Positions 10,227 to 34,375 of a DNA stretch of 64,000 nucleotides are shown here, one piece after another. Location: NCBI GenBank assembly GCA_000182565.2, contig KQ257456.1; one strand, 5' to 3'. The notes beneath the pieces were generated by a model that made no database searches, was not told the origin of the DNA, and saw only the letters and a list, made by a program, of their open reading frames with translations. The position numbers were made by a program, and so were the translations under genes. Source of the stretch: Spizellomyces punctatus DAOM BR117 (lineage: Eukaryota). The first letter of the stretch is position 1. Every line of letters starts with the position of its first letter.

Positions 10227-10956
10227 ATGGCTTCCTTTGGGCATTGCTCGACGGTATTTTGCTTCTTCCTTGTATTCTTTGCAGGTAACAAAGCCGTTTG
10301 TTGAGAGTTGCGTCACATGTTTGGAGAGTAAACTCACACCTTTTTGATTGACAGCATGTACACTCACCTCGGTATCGGCCGGTAATCTCACAATAACATG
10401 CTCCCCAAATCCATGCCCAAAGTCCATTCCCTACAACTCCTCCCTTTCCCTCCTCGTCGACTATAGTCCAACCGTTGCAAACACAGCTCTTCGCAATTTA
10501 ACCGTCTCTTACACATTAACCTACATTCCGGCGGGACAAACTCAACCACAAACAGCATCATACATGAATACGTCTCGTCCAACTAGCGAAAAAAACATTA
10601 CTCTGCAGATTTCGCCTAGCACGCAGCTAAATTTGACTGCACCGCTGCAAAACAATGGCCAGCTACGGACGAGATTTCTGTACACTGAAGTGTTTCAACA
10701 CGATGGAAGCTTTGCGGGAGCAGCTACAGAAGATGGAGCAGAGTTTGAGGTGTTGGGTGTAAACGCAAATAAAGCGGAGGGAACGACGCCGACTCCCTCA
10801 GCGCCTGGGACGGGTTCCTCAACAGCAACCGCTACTCCACCTCGAAGTGTGCTAGTGTTGGGAAGTGCCGCCATGCCAACTGCAAGGGCCGGTGAAGTAG
10901 CAAAGGCTTTGGGTAGCGCGGTGGCGGCCGGAATGGCAGGAATGTTCCTCTTATAA
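10227..10956 (+). CDS. Secreted, probably GPI-anchored Ser/Thr-rich cell-surface protein
   Basis: Exon 1 is a signal peptide (MASFGHCSTVFCFFLVFFA) spliced to ORF 10348-10956, which has a T/S/P-rich stalk and a hydrophobic C-terminal tail (AVAAGMAGMFLL). Confidence 0.7.
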
Positions 10957-11230
10957 GCGTTGTGTTTATCTCTATGTACAGTATATGTTCATAGGCGTCG
11001 TTCAACGCCATTCCGAGGCGAAAGAGAATGACGCAGTGTATTTCTTTAATTGGGCTTTTTGTTTAGATAGTCTTGTAGTTACCATCATCATCGATAGAAA
11101 TATAATTATGCAACTGCTAGAGTCACTCTGTTAAAGAGAGAAGGCAAAAGTACAGCTACACAGGAATAACATCGCACTGCGCAACAACAGCTTGTAAACT
11201 CAAACTCAAGACACAGACAAATGCACTAAA

Positions 11231-12656
11231 TCAACGGGAATCCACGCTAGCGCTTCGCCTCCTGCGATAAGGCGACGGAGACCGACGTCGACGAGGCGAG
11301 TAAGATGGTTCCCTACGGCGACGGTAGTCGCGGTCGCGATCGTCATAATCGCGACGGTAGCCACCTCGAGAGCGTGAGCCTCCCCTGTCGAGATCCCTAC
11401 CCATGTAACGGCCGGGTGTAGGGCTGTGGGGCCGCTGAGTCAAAGAGAAATCGACTCGCATAGGCCGGTCATGCAGGAACTATTATCACAATAAGGAAAT
11501 ACAGGGCTTGGTTAGCCTGTTTGGATTCCCACGAAAAGCCCACCAAATAGGACATACCGTTCCGTTGAGTTCCTGCCTGGCTGCAGTAGCCCCTTCGACG
11601 TCCGCAAAGGTAATGAATCCAAAGCCACGAGACTTCCGGGTCTGTAAAAAAATGTTACGAGTTGCACAACACTATACAAGACAGTGAGCATCAGAAAGAC
11701 CCACCCAATGGTCGTAGATAATTGTGCAGCTCTCGATACGGCCATAAGTGCTGAAGAGCCTTTCAAGGTCTTCTTCTTGTGTATGCAAACTCAACCCAAA
11801 CACACCAAGAACTTTGCTTGGCGTAGGATGTTCCTGAGAGGACCAAGTCAATGTTAACTTGACTGCAGGTGTAAGGCGGCGATCAAATTGTTCACCAACC
11901 CTGTCTTCACGAGGTCCCCTGGGAGGACGGGGAGGTGCACGTCGGCCGTAAGGAGATCGGGAGCGACTTCTTGACCTCGACCTAGAACTGAGAGAAACAT
12001 CCGTTAGAGTGTACAAGAATTGCAGATCTTGCACCAACATTTTTAACTTTACCGGTGGGATCTGAATGTCGACAAGAATCCGAGAAGCAATGCATGAAGA
12101 AAGCAAAGAGCCTTTTAGAACTTGAACGGATGGCAATTACAAAGCGTCATCGTCTGTAGATGTTCTGTCGCGTTCTTTCAGCGTAGACAATTCTTTATGT
12201 TTTGACATGCTTCTGCTTCAAACGCCTTCACATGTTCTTTCTTGCGACGCGTGAAGGTTGATGCTTCTTGCGTTCTTTCCGCTTCAAAGAGACATCTTGA
12301 AGAACTGTTCCCATTTCTTTCCCTTCCTTCCCTAGCACTTTCTGCGTTTTTTCTCGGTCATGAACCGTGATGTTGCCTTATTCTTCGCTTCCTTCCCAGA
12401 CTATTTTGTTCTCTACCCATGAACACAAAAGGACACCATCAAACCACACCACCAAGGGTTGCGTTCCAAACTCTCTAACACACTCTCCCGGTGCAGTGAG
12501 GAGTATTACTACATACCTCCGCTTTGTGTACCTGTCCCGTGAAGGGCTGCGGCTCCTGCTGCGGTCACGTCCACCACTTCGCTTTTTCTCACCGCGAGGA
12601 CTGCGGGAGCGAGAGCGCGAAACAGACCGGGCCCGTGGAGACCGTTCCTGAACCAT
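11231..12656 (-). CDS. TRA2: Transformer-2-like splicing regulator (RS-RRM-RS)
   Basis: N-terminal RS domain, [23 protein letters not shown], and [20 protein letters not shown] (Tra2-specific motif), followed by a C-terminal RS/RD domain. Confidence 0.92.
12053..12412 (-). other. Candidate AGAA-rich poison cassette exon inside TRA2 intron 1
   Basis: TAG acceptor at 12413-12415, about 13 AGAA motifs, in-frame TGA at 12358-12360, candidate donors GTAATT (12140) or GTAAAG (12052). Confidence 0.6.
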
Positions 12657-13084
12657 TTGAGCTCCAATGTCAATACACGGCGTAGATGTTACCGCTTGCT
12701 AGAGTGCATACTTACGCTGTGGCCGTTCATTGCTAGTGTTGGAAAATGCTTGAAAAAAAAACGCTGCCGGGTTGATCGTCGAGATCAGAAACTTTCTCCC
12801 AACCTCCATCAACAAAAGGGGGGTTGGCCACAAATTGAAAGCGCAGTTCACGTGCTCTCATTTGATCGAATTACTGCGCCACATTAGCTAATATATTATC
12901 AAATATCGCGTTGTTTTCGTGTGGTGGAACGCTGGCAGCTGTAGTGCCCCCAACTGACTCGCTCAAATCGGGACGGTTGGCCCTAATGCCACTGGTCCAT
13001 TTTTTTCCAGTTTTGCTCGAATCGTAAGGAGCTTATAAGCGCTTGCCAAGTGCTGGTCGCTTGTTATCCTTCCTGCTCCTCGCC

Positions 13085-13453
13085 ATGTCCGGTAACGCCT
13101 TCACGTCCCTTACGTCCGCAGCCCTCATTTCCCTTAGCATTCTGGGTTCTGCATACATTGTTACCCATCCCAACCTTACAGTACCAACAATTTCTTCGAT
13201 TGTCCCTACAGCGGCTTCGAAAGCAGAGGTCCCAGTTTCTAAGGCATCCCAGTTGGCAAAAAATGCGTCCGCTGTATTGAGCAAAAGGGCTGGTGCGATC
13301 ATCATGGGTGCAATCGTCACCGTTGGTCTAGGTCTAGGAGTTGTCTCCTACAGAAGGAGTAAGTCACCTCTGATATGTTATTAAACATGTGTAATGTACT
13401 GACAAAAAGCTGGTGTAGAGCGGTCAAGCATCCCCAAACCCCCCAGAAAATGA
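13085..13453 (+). CDS. Small two-TM membrane protein of unknown function
   Basis: MSGNAFTSLTSAALISLSILGSAYIV... and GAIIMGAIVTVGLGLGVVSYRR; a GTAAGT..TAG intron leads to KRSSIPKPPRK stop. Confidence 0.6.
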
Positions 13454-33522: not shown

Positions 33523-34375
33523 ATGTCGGCCAAAAAACAGGTCACGCAGCTCTCGAATAGTGTGCTGTCTTTAAAGGTTCGTATCCTCGCTTATCACTGT
33601 TCAGAACAGTATCTGTAAACCTTTCGAACAGTTCATGCACCGCGCCGACGAAGCCAAAGTCCGACAAAAGCTGGAGGAAGAGCAGCGGAGAGCGCAACAG
33701 GAGGCCCAGTGGGTTGTAGGAGACTTTGATCGTGATGAGCTCGAGAGGTGGGCCGTCTATCTATGTGCATCTGTGGGTGAATGCCACGCAATTGATACCT
33801 GTCGTCTTTATCTGAATAGTGTCCAATTCGAATATGATAACAGTTATGTATCTTTCATGCCAAATACCTTTGGAAGACGATCATTTGGAAACTTCAACAA
33901 GGAGGTGGAGGTAAGGAAAGATTTTCGCGCATAAGTCGATACGGGCGACGGCCGCGCTTGGTCAATAAAAGGCGAGGGAGGCAAAGTACATGATTGTTGC
34001 GAGCCTCAAAGGGAAAACGCCTTCTAGCAAGCTACCCAAATCCTATGTTCGCTTTTCCAAACCCCAACCGATGTCACCAAAAGCCCACCAACACCTCTCT
34101 CCTAGAAACTCTCAGAAGAAGCTACACAAACTGCTCGCCTAGCGTTAGCCCATGAAAATGAAACCCGGGACTCCGTCTCAGATATGGACTTAGCAAAGCA
34201 CTTTAAAGGCATTCAACAAGATAAGAAGCGAAAACGAGACAAAGAAGAAAAGAACGATGCAGGGTCGGATTGGGATGATTTTAAAGGGCGAAAAGCCACA
34301 AGGTTCTCACATGCTGCGACGGCGACTGATGTTGAGAAGAGAAAAGATAGTAAGGTGTTTATCAAGCCAGAATGA
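33523..34375 (+). CDS. MPP6: M-phase phosphoprotein 6 (nuclear exosome cofactor)
   Basis: LSNSVLSLKFMHR, GRRSFGNFNKEVE, VSDMDLA and C-terminal FIKPE. Confidence 0.85.

What the first reader, a model, noticed from the sequence alone, without database searches (positions are those of the whole stretch)
11988..12516. TRA2 intron 1 hides an AGAA-dense poison exon: candidate animal-style autoregulatory circuit in a chytrid-type fungus
Seen: intron 1 is 529 nt (GTATGT at 12516 to CTAAC..CAG at 11988), about 8 times the local norm. Inside, a GT/T-rich tract ends in TAG at 12413-12415. It is followed by about 270 nt of purine-rich sense sequence with about 13 AGAA motifs (AAAGAAC, CAAGAAG, CAGAAC, etc.; about 1 expected at uniform composition). 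Inclusion gives an in-frame TGA at 12358-12360, before the RRM. Donors at 12140 (GTAATT) or 12052 (GTAAAG) close the cassette; the latter leaves flanking introns of 104 and 65 nt. Established: the Tra2 RRM binds AGAA, and vertebrate TRA2A/TRA2B are feedback-regulated by an AGAA/GAA-rich poison exon after exon 1. Inference: the same homeostatic loop exists here, ancestral or convergent. Cassette exons are rare in fungi, and I know of no description of this in chytrids.
Basis: partly seen in the sequence, partly recalled or inferred. Interest (0 to 1): 0.88.

Follow-up and report, generated by a model that had tools for sequence, protein, structure and literature searches.

The report
Chytrid TRA2 gene: AGAA-rich intron block
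A chytrid fungus's copy of the splicing regulator TRA2 carries, in its one long intron, a dense cluster of the RNA motif that TRA2 itself binds, which suggests animal-style self-limitation by unproductive splicing, but no RNA evidence yet shows this.

Summary
The sequence observation holds. On the minus strand, 12141-12412 carries 13 AGAA in 272 nt. That is the highest density in the 64-kb window on either strand, and 6 of 5000 dinucleotide shuffles reach it. The gene is a TRA2 orthologue of a Spizellomyces-type chytrid.

One correction. RNA contigs show that the "529-nt intron" is a 455-nt intron, a constitutive in-frame 9-nt microexon (12061-12053) and a 65-nt intron.

The proposed acceptor (TAG at 12413) is the first AG after the only branch-like motif in the long intron. 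Inclusion gives the in-frame TGA at 12360-12358, and retention gives a TAA.

No inclusion or retention junction was seen. The few intron reads in a 3'-biased library cannot be told from pre-mRNA. Conservation in relatives could not be tested.

My odds:
- Tra2 negative feedback through this block: about 0.55 in total (poison exon about 0.30, intron retention about 0.25).
- Productive splicing enhancer: 0.15.
- No function: 0.20.

If true, it is a new fungal member of a known kind of circuit, with a microexon twist.

The parts
12716..12730 (-). Putative exon 1 (ATG plus 4 codons). The donor GTAAGT follows at 12715.
   Evidence: Read from the sequence. No RNA record reached it. An in-frame ATG at 12656 is an alternative start.
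12517..12647 (-). Exon 2, which encodes most of the N-terminal Arg/Ser-rich domain (RS1). It ends in phase 2 (..CGG AG|).
   Evidence: The 3' end at 12517 is fixed by RNA contigs of X1 and X3. The 5' end is inferred from the CAG at 12650-12648. Translation.
12062..12516 (-). Long intron (455 nt) of the productive mRNA. GTATGT donor at 12516, CAG acceptor at 12064-12062.
   Evidence: RNA contigs of X1 and X3 join 12517 to the microexon. The gene's other five introns are 63-78 nt and hold 0 AGAA, against 13 here.
12413..12516 (-). GU/U-rich 104-nt stretch ending in TAG (12415-12413). It is the candidate upstream mini-intron of a poison exon. A branch-like TTGAT has its A at 12439, 26 nt before the AG.
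   Evidence: TTGAT is the only YTRAY motif in the long intron, and 12413 is the first AG after it. Use of this acceptor was not seen in RNA.
12141..12412 (-). Purine-rich block of 272 nt with 13 AGAA, 25 GAA, AAGAAC three times and GAAAGAAC three times. It is the candidate Tra2-binding array and poison-exon body.
   Evidence: counts, shuffles, window maximum; no other copy in the window; no Rfam match; the 59-aa ORF inside it has 0 relatives among 1.84 billion representatives.
12358..12360 (-). TGA, in frame with exon 2 if the acceptor at 12413 is used.
   Evidence: translation.
12378..12380 (-). TAA, the first in-frame stop if the long intron is retained.
   Evidence: (ORF 12378..12698).
12062..12140 (-). 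Candidate 79-nt downstream mini-intron. It has a GTAATT donor at 12140, then a pyrimidine-rich tract with no AG for about 48 nt, up to the CAG at 12062.
   Evidence: Sequence. The acceptor at 12062 is RNA-proven. The donor at 12140 is not.
12053..12061 (-). Constitutive 9-nt in-frame microexon (ATCCCACCG). With the flanking bases it reads Arg-Ser-His-Arg inside RS1.
   Evidence: Contigs of X1 and X3 carry 8 extra letters between 12517 and 11988. On the minus strand of the window these letters occur only at 12061, flanked by CAG and GTAAAG. The annotated model of the closest relative (P0001) aligns better with it than without it (score 307 against 276).
11988..12052 (-). 65-nt intron. GTAAAG donor, CTAAC branch site (A at 12004), CAG acceptor.
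11900..11987 (-). Exon 3: the end of RS1 and a Pro/Arg linker. Its last codon is the Arg that corresponds to Arg111 of human Tra2-beta.
   Evidence: Junctions in contigs of X1, X2 and X3. Translation.
11705..11833 (-). Exon 4: the N-terminal half of the RRM (RNP2, LGVFGL). It holds an AAGAAGAAGA run at 11778-11769.
   Evidence: Pfam RRM_1, E 1.8e-6. Junctions.
11558..11641 (-). Exon 5: the middle of the RRM (RNP1, RGFGFITF).
   Evidence: Pfam RRM_1, E 1.3e-7. Junctions.
11231..11479 (-). Exon 6 coding part: the end of the RRM, the Tra2-type C-terminal extension, RS2, and the stop TGA at 11233-11231. The 3' UTR runs to a poly(A) site near 11103-11106.
   Evidence: 98% identical to a Spizellomyces protein; Tra2 names among the hits. 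(T-run loose ends at 11103 and 11106).

Best explanation
The gene is the chytrid orthologue of the splicing activator TRA2 (RS1, RRM, RS2).

Its productive mRNA removes a 455-nt intron, keeps a 9-nt microexon and removes a 65-nt intron. The long intron holds a 272-nt array of the AGAA motif that the Tra2 RRM binds.

My reading is a negative feedback loop. When Tra2 protein is abundant it coats this array and gives it exon identity. The weak TAG acceptor at 12413 is then used. The exon closes either at the GTAATT donor (12140, a 272-nt cassette) or at the proven microexon donor (12052, a 360-nt extended exon). The transcript then carries TGA at 12360-12358, upstream of at least four exon junctions. 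It can only encode an RS1 stub and should be removed by nonsense-mediated decay, which lowers Tra2 output.

Shown here: gene identity, the array, the microexon, the 12052 donor and the stop codons. Inferred: Tra2 binding, use of 12413 and 12140, decay and feedback.
For: - Identity. Exons 4 and 5 match Pfam RRM_1. The best relatives are Spizellomycetales proteins, several named transformer-2, followed by fish and cestode Tra2 (34 proteins with E<=0.001 among 1636 candidates). The three best solved structures are human Tra2-beta RRMs, at E 1.5e-24 to 7.3e-24.
- RNA contacts. Of the 16 residues that Tsuda et al. name as contacting AGAA (PMC3045587, passages), 10 are identical and 3 conservative.
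- Array. 13 AGAA in 272 nt is the window maximum on both strands. 0 of 5000 mononucleotide and 6 of 5000 dinucleotide shuffles reach it. AAGAAC, the hexamer used as the single Tra2-beta1 site in NMR titrations (PMC4041419, passages), occurs three times. The gene's five short introns hold 0 AGAA.
- Splice signals. 12413 is the first AG after the only YTRAY motif of the long intron. The 12052 donor is used in RNA. The putative mini-introns, 104 and 79 nt, are close to the gene's normal 63-78 nt.
- Stop codon. The TGA is in frame.
- Precedent. Vertebrate Tra2a and Sfrs10 (Tra2b) poison exons hold arrays of Tra2-beta sites and act in feedback (PMC3240583, passages; PMC11791180, abstract and passages). 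The legend of a supporting figure names an Arabidopsis TRA2A orthologue among genes whose poison-exon supporting reads are shown (PMC11357089, passage).
- Not something else. No Rfam match, no tandem repeat beyond 19 nt, no stable fold (z -0.76), no second copy in the window, no protein relatives of its ORF.
Against: - No read or contig joins 12517 to 12412, or 12141 to 12061. The only contigs that cover the junction (X1 and X3, one study) show the productive form.
- In X11 the deepest intron bin is 12411-12467 (depth 2.44). That bin lies in the stretch a cassette model calls intronic. This fits unspliced or retained RNA better, though it rests on only a few reads.
- The 12413 acceptor has GGG before TAG. 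The 12140 donor lacks the +5 G that 5 of the gene's 6 other donors have.
- Once base composition is allowed for, the enrichment is only 2.2- to 2.9-fold.
- Conservation in relatives is untested.
- Cassette exons are uncommon in fungi. The one documented fungal SR-gene case uses intron retention with no cassette (PMC4379411, passages).
- Tyr165, which hydrogen-bonds the last A of AGAA in the human protein, is Thr here.
Confidence: 0.3

Rival explanations
1. The same negative feedback, but through intron retention rather than a poison exon. Tra2 bound to the AGAA array inside the 455-nt intron blocks its removal, as fly Tra2 does on the M1 intron of its own pre-mRNA. The retained RNA stops at TAA 12380-12378 and is either degraded or held in the nucleus.
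For: [quoted passage not shown] Tra2 complexes repress from intronic positions and activate from exonic ones (PMC3245930, abstract).
- The fungal orthologue of SRSF5 is regulated by NMD-coupled retention of an unusually long intron, with no cassette exon (PMC4379411, passages).
- X11 reads cover 12126-12524 in the sense orientation, including the 104-nt stretch upstream of 12413.
- Retention gives an in-frame stop.
- All the array and identity evidence listed for the best explanation applies equally here.
Against: - The X11 library is strongly 3'-biased (depth 556 near the stop against 0-2 in exons 2-4). The block has A-rich runs that can prime oligo-dT internally, so these few reads may be ordinary pre-mRNA.
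- No read count can be turned into a retained fraction.
- The branch-like motif with the first AG at 12413, and the mini-intron sizes, are left unexplained by pure retention.
Confidence: 0.25
2. The AGAA array is a productive splicing enhancer. It helps the spliceosome to define the 9-nt microexon, which is too short to carry enhancers of its own, or to pair splice sites across an intron about 7 times the usual length. No unproductive isoform and no feedback are involved.
For: - The microexon is constitutive in the RNA seen.
- Its acceptor has no YTRAY branch motif within 8-45 nt, only a long pyrimidine tract, so it looks in need of help.
- The array ends about 80 nt upstream of it.
- Skipping the microexon keeps the frame, so its inclusion would have to be actively maintained.
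Against: - Where tested, Tra2 bound in an intron represses rather than activates (PMC3245930, abstract).
- A 272-nt array with 13 sites is far larger than a microexon enhancer would need.
- This would make Tra2 promote its own productive mRNA, a positive loop, which is the opposite of every described SR or Tra2 case.
- It does not explain why the intron is long in the first place.
Confidence: 0.15
3. No function. The block is neutral purine-rich filler, for example an old insertion that has since decayed, and the AGAA excess in a TRA2 gene is a coincidence.
For: - With composition taken into account the excess is 2.2- to 2.9-fold. 6 of 5000 dinucleotide shuffles reach it, and another 4-mer (ACGC) is more enriched.
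- Some of the motif copies come from short internal duplications, such as GAAAGAACGC twice 100 nt apart and GGGAAGGAAG twice.
- No isoform and no conservation has been shown.
Against: - It is the densest AGAA cluster on either strand of 64 kb.
- It sits in the one long intron of the very gene whose product binds AGAA, while that gene's five other introns are 63-78 nt with no AGAA.
- No repeat copy is present in the window, and no coding or transposon-like relatives were found.
Confidence: 0.2
4. The block belongs to a separate transcript: an intronic non-coding RNA, an internal promoter product, or an antisense gene.
For: X11 depth inside the intron (0.6-2.4) exceeds that of the neighbouring exon 3 (0) and exon 2 (0.3-0.6).
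Against: - All intron reads have the same orientation as the gene's exon reads, and none is antisense.
- No Rfam family matches at E<=1.
- The fold is no better than shuffles (z -0.76; 21 of 100 shuffles fold as well).
- No ORF has relatives.
- The depth pattern is explained by the 3' bias and by A-rich internal priming.
Confidence: 0.05

Closest known systems
Vertebrate TRA2B (Sfrs10) exon 2 and TRA2A poison exons
   Same: - Both sit in the regulator's own pre-mRNA, upstream of the RRM exons.
- Both are a few hundred nucleotides long and packed with AGAA/GAA Tra2 sites.
- In both, inclusion brings a premature stop.
- Both are expected to act as homeostatic feedback (PMC3240583; PMC11791180).
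   Different: - Here inclusion has not been observed.
- The block lies inside RS1-coding sequence and next to a constitutive 9-nt microexon whose donor it may share.
- The flanking introns would be about 100 nt, in the intron-definition range, not kilobases.
- Whether the intron position is homologous was not tested. What I know of the position of the vertebrate exon is recalled, not taken from a call.
- Ultraconservation is a hallmark of the vertebrate exons, and conservation is untested here.
Drosophila tra2 M1 intron retention
   Same: An intron in the regulator's own pre-mRNA carries Tra2 binding elements. High Tra2 blocks its removal and limits the functional product (PMC1669769; PMC3245930).
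   Different: - As I recall, the fly silencer elements are not simple AGAA arrays. I did not check this in a call.
- In the fly, regulation is specific to the male germline through dose.
- Here retention is only one of two candidate modes.
Fungal srp2 (SRSF5 orthologue): NMD-coupled retention of an unusually long intron
   Same: A fungal SR-family gene keeps one strikingly long intron among short ones, and that intron is the site of unproductive splicing. The retained form is stabilised in an NMD mutant of Neurospora (PMC4379411, passages).
   Different: - It is a different SR family, and the fungi are Dikarya.
[quoted passage not shown]
- That paper does not mention Tra2 (0 occurrences).
Arabidopsis AT1G07350 (TRA2A orthologue) poison exon
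   Same: It is a Tra2-family gene outside animals. The legend of a supporting figure names it among genes whose poison-exon supporting reads are shown (PMC11357089, passage).
   Different: It is a plant. I saw only the legend of a supporting figure, with no details of motif content or position.

Membership tests
TRA2 protein family (the host gene) | A single central RRM with the unusual Tra2 RNP2 (L-G-V-F-G-L, Phe at position 4) and an aromatic RNP1 | tested here: met
   Pfam RRM_1 matches on exons 4 and 5. The alignment to human Tra2-beta RRM shows LGVFGL identical, and RGFGFITF against RGFAFVYF. The features are described in PMC3045587.
TRA2 protein family (the host gene) | Arg/Ser-rich domains on both sides of the RRM | tested here: met
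   The spliced translation, 234 aa from RNA-supported junctions, has RS repeats before and RS/RR-rich sequence after the RRM.
TRA2 protein family (the host gene) | Closest relatives and closest solved structures are Tra2, including the conserved extension after the RRM (RVDFS.T.RPH.PTPG.YMG) | tested here: met
   (chytrid 'transformer 2' proteins, then fish TRA2A and cestode Tra2). (invariant columns in the extension). (2rra, 2rrb and 2kxn are the best three, E about 1e-24). No phylogenetic tree was built.
TRA2 protein family (the host gene) | Residues that read AGAA are conserved | tested here: inconclusive
   10 of 16 named contact residues are identical (Arg111, Phe123, Gly124, Phe163, Arg187, Arg190, Asp192, Phe193, Thr196, Arg198). 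Three are conservative (Ser148Thr, Val150Ile, Ile195Leu). Three are changed (Tyr165Thr, Arg188Pro, Lys197Gln). Sources. Binding itself was not tested.
Tra2 autoregulatory poison exon (vertebrate type) | A dense array of Tra2 binding motifs in the regulator's own pre-mRNA, upstream of the RRM exons | tested here: met
Tra2 autoregulatory poison exon (vertebrate type) | Inclusion introduces a premature in-frame stop | tested here: met
   TGA at 12360-12358 with the acceptor at 12413. This holds only if that acceptor is used.
Tra2 autoregulatory poison exon (vertebrate type) | The exon is actually spliced into a fraction of transcripts | tested here: inconclusive
   One search listed no such joint. 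Only about 6 in 100 of run X11 was read, the library is 3'-biased, and contigs drop rare forms.
Tra2 autoregulatory poison exon (vertebrate type) | Inclusion rises with Tra2 level, and the isoform is NMD-sensitive | not testable with these tools
   This needs overexpression or depletion, and NMD-block experiments.
Tra2 autoregulatory poison exon (vertebrate type) | The sequence, or at least the motif array, is conserved among related species | not testable with these tools
   No chytrid genomes are held. The metagenome scan gave only distant cDNA-like loci. The read-through ORF search found nothing.
Tra2-repressed retained intron (fly M1 type) | Binding elements lie within an intron of the productive mRNA, and retention truncates the product | tested here: met
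   The productive RNA splices the block out. Retention stops at TAA 12380-12378.
Tra2-repressed retained intron (fly M1 type) | A polyadenylated retained-intron RNA accumulates | tested here: inconclusive
   Sense reads cover 12126-12524 at depth 0.5-2.4, but they cannot be told from internally primed pre-mRNA.

The most novel reading that the evidence does not exclude
Tra2 self-limitation through an AGAA-array poison exon predates the split of fungi and animals. On this reading the chytrid block and the vertebrate TRA2A/TRA2B poison exons descend from one ancestral element. In the chytrid, Tra2 acts by moving an exon boundary. It switches a constitutive 9-nt microexon into a 360-nt stop-bearing exon by choosing an acceptor 351 nt upstream. 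That would be a microexon/poison-exon toggle with no described counterpart.
Probability: 0.1. Interest if true: 0.8.

Novelty: new member of a known kind. Interest (0 to 1): 0.5.

Why it matters
Splicing regulators of the SR family in animals hold their own levels steady through unproductive splicing. The exons involved are among the most conserved sequences in vertebrate genomes. How old each of these loops is, and whether they are inherited or reinvented, remains unsettled (PMC4379411).

For Tra2, I saw passages or abstracts for vertebrates and flies and one figure legend for a plant. I found nothing for any fungus. 'Tra2' with 'chytrid' returned 0 papers. Of the 8 papers holding 'Tra2', 'poison exon' and 'fungi', 7 were listed, and none addresses a fungal Tra2 by title or abstract start.

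A chytrid case would add a third kingdom. It would also give a small, short-intron system in which the motif array, the weak splice sites and a 9-nt microexon can be dissected by simple RT-PCR and minigenes. The microexon is itself a useful correction to gene models. The closest relative's annotated protein is out of frame over RS1, and three other relatives' models lack RS1.

Tried and rejected
- Whole genome. None is held for this window, so genome-wide repeat status, the intron-length distribution and other AGAA-rich targets could not be examined.
- Conservation, first attempt. A metagenome scan with a Tra2 alignment gave 80 loci (340 of 532 stretches confirmed). None is a close chytrid relative; best-segment identities run 44-83% over short stretches. 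Most are spliced cDNA-like contigs. Their AGAA peaks lie in RS-coding sequence, in a simple AGA repeat, or far downstream of the gene (6 loci read; 2 more). I dropped this line as uninformative.
- Conservation, second attempt. I searched for gene calls that read from exon 2 into the intron, using residues 47-92 of a 92-aa read-through ORF. No candidate was found. This is no evidence either way.
- Coding or transposon remnant. The 59-aa ORF inside the block has 0 relatives at E<=0.001 among 1.84 billion representatives.
- ncRNA. 0 Rfam matches at E<=1 over 11000-13000.
- RNA structure. The 529-nt span folds at -144 kcal/mol against -139.4 +/- 6.1 for shuffles, z -0.76. Short inverted repeats between the array and the pyrimidine tract are what purine and pyrimidine tracts give anyway.
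- Tandem repeat. Only a 19-nt, 9-mer x 2.1 array.
- A crude regular-expression catalogue of short introns was bounded by its own length limits, so I did not use it.
- X11 intron depth as proof of a stable isoform. I rejected this because the library is 3'-biased and the block has A-rich priming sites.
- Supplements of the cited papers were not opened. Those of PMC4379411, PMC6142364 and PMC5560861 may list per-species events or SR orthologues that bear on novelty.
Full report
**What is at the coordinates**

I read 10800-13200 on the minus strand. The region holds a small gene. Its RNA-supported exons are:
- 12517 (3' end of exon 2)
- 12061-12053
- 11987-11900
- 11833-11705
- 11641-11558
- 11479 to the stop at 11233-11231

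Poly(A) addition is near 11103-11106. The 5' end of exon 2 (12647) and a 15-nt first exon (12730-12716, ATG) are read from the sequence only. The spliced reading frame is 705 nt and 234 codons, laid out as Arg/Ser-rich, RRM, Arg/Ser-rich.

- GTATGT at 12516
- CTAAC followed by CAG ending at 11988
- a GU/U-rich tract ending in TAG at 12415-12413
- GTAATT at 12140
- GTAAAG at 12052
- TGA at 12360-12358

**Is the AGAA cluster more than chance?**

The block 12141-12412 has 13 AGAA and 25 GAA, and all 13 AGAA of the span lie in it.

Over the whole window, 272-nt windows hold 1.4 +/- 1.4 AGAA. This locus is the maximum on both strands and the only minus-strand place with 10 or more. The plus-strand maximum is 10, at 34098-34375, in a Lys/Glu/Asp-rich open frame.

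Dinucleotide shuffles give 5.9 +/- 1.9, and 6 of 5000 reach 13. The excess is therefore real but 2.2- to 2.9-fold, not 13-fold.

AGAA is the second most enriched 4-mer (z 3.8), after ACGC (z 5.06). GAAG follows at 10 against 3.9. AAGAAC and GAAAGAAC each occur three times. Two 10-mers occur twice, so part of the count comes from small internal duplications.

The gene's five short introns hold no AGAA, and the 705-nt coding sequence holds 4.

**What the host gene is**

- Exons 4 and 5 each match Pfam RRM_1.
- The last exon's 82 residues are 98% identical to a protein of Spizellomyces sp. 'palustris'.
- The next hits are Phlyctochytrium, Powellomyces, Gaertneriomyces and Geranomyces proteins, three of them named transformer-2 or SFRS10. 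Fish TRA2A and cestode Tra2 follow (34 hits among 1636 candidates).
- The three best solved structures are human Tra2-beta RRMs (2rra, 2rrb, 2kxn; E 1.5e-24 to 7.3e-24).

'TRA2 of a chytrid-type fungus' is therefore supported.

I then checked the AGAA contacts. I used the residue-level account of AGAA recognition in Tsuda et al. (PMC3045587, passages read) and the alignment, transferred to the window's own protein. Of 16 contact residues:
- 10 are identical, including Arg111, Phe123, Phe163, Arg190 and Asp192, which read the G-A step.
- 3 are conservative changes.
- 3 differ: Tyr165Thr, Arg188Pro and Lys197Gln.

AGAA binding is thus likely but not proven.

**The RNA evidence and the correction it forces**

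One run search and one lay were allowed.

Contigs from two RNA runs of one study (X1, X3), both identical to the window, join 12517 to 11988 with 8 extra letters between. On the minus strand those letters occur once in the window, at 12061. There they are preceded by CAG and followed by GTAAAG. With the ambiguous flanking G they form a 9-nt in-frame microexon, 12061-12053, which adds Arg-Ser-His-Arg-type codons inside RS1.

The '529-nt intron' is therefore a 455-nt intron, a microexon and a 65-nt intron.

The annotated model of the closest relative contains the same three codons in its (wrong) frame. It aligns better with the microexon than without it, score 307 against 276.

The other junctions were supported as follows:
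- The 66-nt intron by contigs of X1, X2 and X3.
- The 63-nt intron by contigs of X1 and X3, plus 1 read of X11.
- The 78-nt intron by a contig of X1, plus 3 reads of X11.

**What the RNA does not show**

No joint to 12412 or from 12141 was listed.

Run X11 holds raw reads, of which about 6 in 100 were read, and 1799 were laid. It is strongly 3'-biased. Depth is 556 near the stop, 12-13 in exons 5 and 6, 1-2 in exon 4, 0 in exon 3 and 0.3-0.6 in exon 2.

Inside the long intron it gives sense-orientation depth of 0.6-1.3 over the block and 2.4 over 12411-12467. The bins that lie wholly inside two of the short introns (11499-11555 and 11841-11897) show no reads in the gene's orientation. The second of these holds a trace (0.33) in the opposite orientation.

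This amounts to a handful of reads. The block has A-rich runs that can prime oligo-dT internally. I therefore do not count this as evidence for a stable isoform. If anything, the reads upstream of 12413 fit unspliced or retained RNA better than a cassette.

**Splice-signal anatomy**

In the 529 nt there are only two YTRAY branch-like motifs. One is CTAAC, 16 nt before the 11988 acceptor. The other is TTGAT, with its A at 12439. The first AG after TTGAT is the TAG at 12413, 26 nt downstream.

The microexon acceptor has no such motif within 8-45 nt. It follows a pyrimidine-rich stretch of about 48 nt with no AG.

If the block were an exon closed at 12140, the three introns would be 104, 79 and 65 nt, close to the gene's norm of 63-78 nt. 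If it were closed at 12052, it would be a 360-nt upstream extension of the microexon.

The 12413 acceptor (GGG before TAG) and the 12140 donor (no +5 G) are weak. That is what regulated sites look like, but it is also what non-sites look like.

**What it is not**

- No Rfam family matches.
- There is no tandem repeat beyond 19 nt.
- The fold is no better than shuffles (z -0.76).
- There is no second copy in the window.
- No protein relatives of the 59-aa frame inside it were found among 1.84 billion representatives.

**Mechanism**

The circuit I think most likely is negative feedback. Abundant Tra2 binds the array, and the bound RNA becomes unproductive.

Two routes fit. Fly work shows that Tra2 complexes activate from exonic positions and repress from intronic ones, both favouring exon identity for the bound sequence (PMC3245930, abstract).

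- Route A, poison exon. The 12413 acceptor is activated and TGA 12360-12358 is read in frame. This mirrors the vertebrate Tra2a and Sfrs10 exons, which carry arrays of Tra2-beta sites (PMC3240583, passages; PMC11791180).
- Route B, retention. Removal of the 455-nt intron is blocked and TAA 12380-12378 is read. This mirrors the fly M1 intron (PMC1669769, abstract). It also mirrors the NMD-coupled retention of an unusually long intron in the fungal SRSF5 orthologue (PMC4379411, passages).

Either way the stop lies upstream of at least four exon junctions. NMD components are reported to be pan-eukaryotic (PMC5560861, passage).

I put feedback at about 0.55 in total, with A at 0.30 and B at 0.25. 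The alternatives are a productive enhancer for the microexon or the long intron (0.15), no function (0.20) and a separate transcript (0.05).

Binding, isoform production, decay and dose response are all inferred.

**Comparison and novelty**

As a kind of system, autoregulatory unproductive splicing of an SR-family gene through its own binding motifs is well known in animals. It is reported for a fungal SRSF5 orthologue, and a figure legend names a plant TRA2A orthologue among genes with poison-exon reads.

I found no report for Tra2 in any fungus:
- 'Tra2' with 'chytrid' returned 0 papers.
- 'Tra2', 'poison exon' and 'fungi' returned 8 papers, 7 of them listed. None is on a fungal Tra2 by title or abstract start.
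- 'Tra2', 'fungi', 'SR proteins', 'orthologs' and 'evolution' returned 4 papers. I opened two of them. One only records TRA2 as anciently eukaryotic, and the other concerns Smndc1.
- The broad alternative-splicing survey that includes Spizellomyces punctatus does not mention Tra2, poison exons or microexons in its main text (PMC6142364).

Supplements were not available to me.

If the circuit is real, it is a new fungal member of a known kind, with an unusual coupling to a constitutive 9-nt microexon. Whether it is homologous to the animal exons was not tested and cannot be judged from RS-domain alignment.

**Verdict**

Interest 0.5.

Noticed in passing
P0001-P0004 (relatives' annotated proteins); window 11900-12647: The closest relative's annotated protein (P0001) reads exon 2, the microexon and exon 3 in the wrong frame, so it shows no RS1. 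The models of three other Spizellomycetales (P0002-P0004) start just before the RRM and also lack RS1. This hints that gene predictors stumble at this intron in those species too, which is a lead for a conserved long intron and not evidence of one.
   Followed up: partly
window 11769-11778 (minus strand, exon 4): The RRM-coding exon 4 carries an AAGAAGAAGA run, a strong Tra2-type site inside a constitutive exon of its own gene. It codes for Gln-Glu-Glu-Asp.
   Followed up: no
window 34098-34375 (plus strand): This is the second-densest AGAA cluster of the window, with 10 in 272 nt. It lies in an open frame rich in Lys, Glu and Asp, so it is probably a by-product of coding for charged residues.
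   Followed up: partly
window 11100-11156: X11 shows reads of the opposite orientation here (depth about 6), next to the TRA2 poly(A) site at 11103-11106. A convergent plus-strand gene probably ends here, so the two 3' ends abut or overlap. There is an open frame at 10348-10956.
   Followed up: no
window 12414-12516 (minus strand): The first 104 nt of the long intron are markedly GU-rich (runs such as GGUGGUGUGGUUUGAUGGUGU), in sharp contrast with the purine block that follows. This could be a binding platform for another factor, or it may simply be the pyrimidine and branch region of the candidate acceptor.
   Followed up: no
L063 3963-4238; also L058, L059, L067 (metagenome contigs of one unknown eukaryote): In a distant Tra2 homologue on genomic metagenome contigs, a sense-strand AGAA cluster (10-11 in 272 nt against a background of 1.8) sits about 1.3 kb downstream of the RRM match, beyond the RS2 coding frame. 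Whether it lies in the 3' UTR, in an intron or in a neighbouring gene is unknown.
   Followed up: partly
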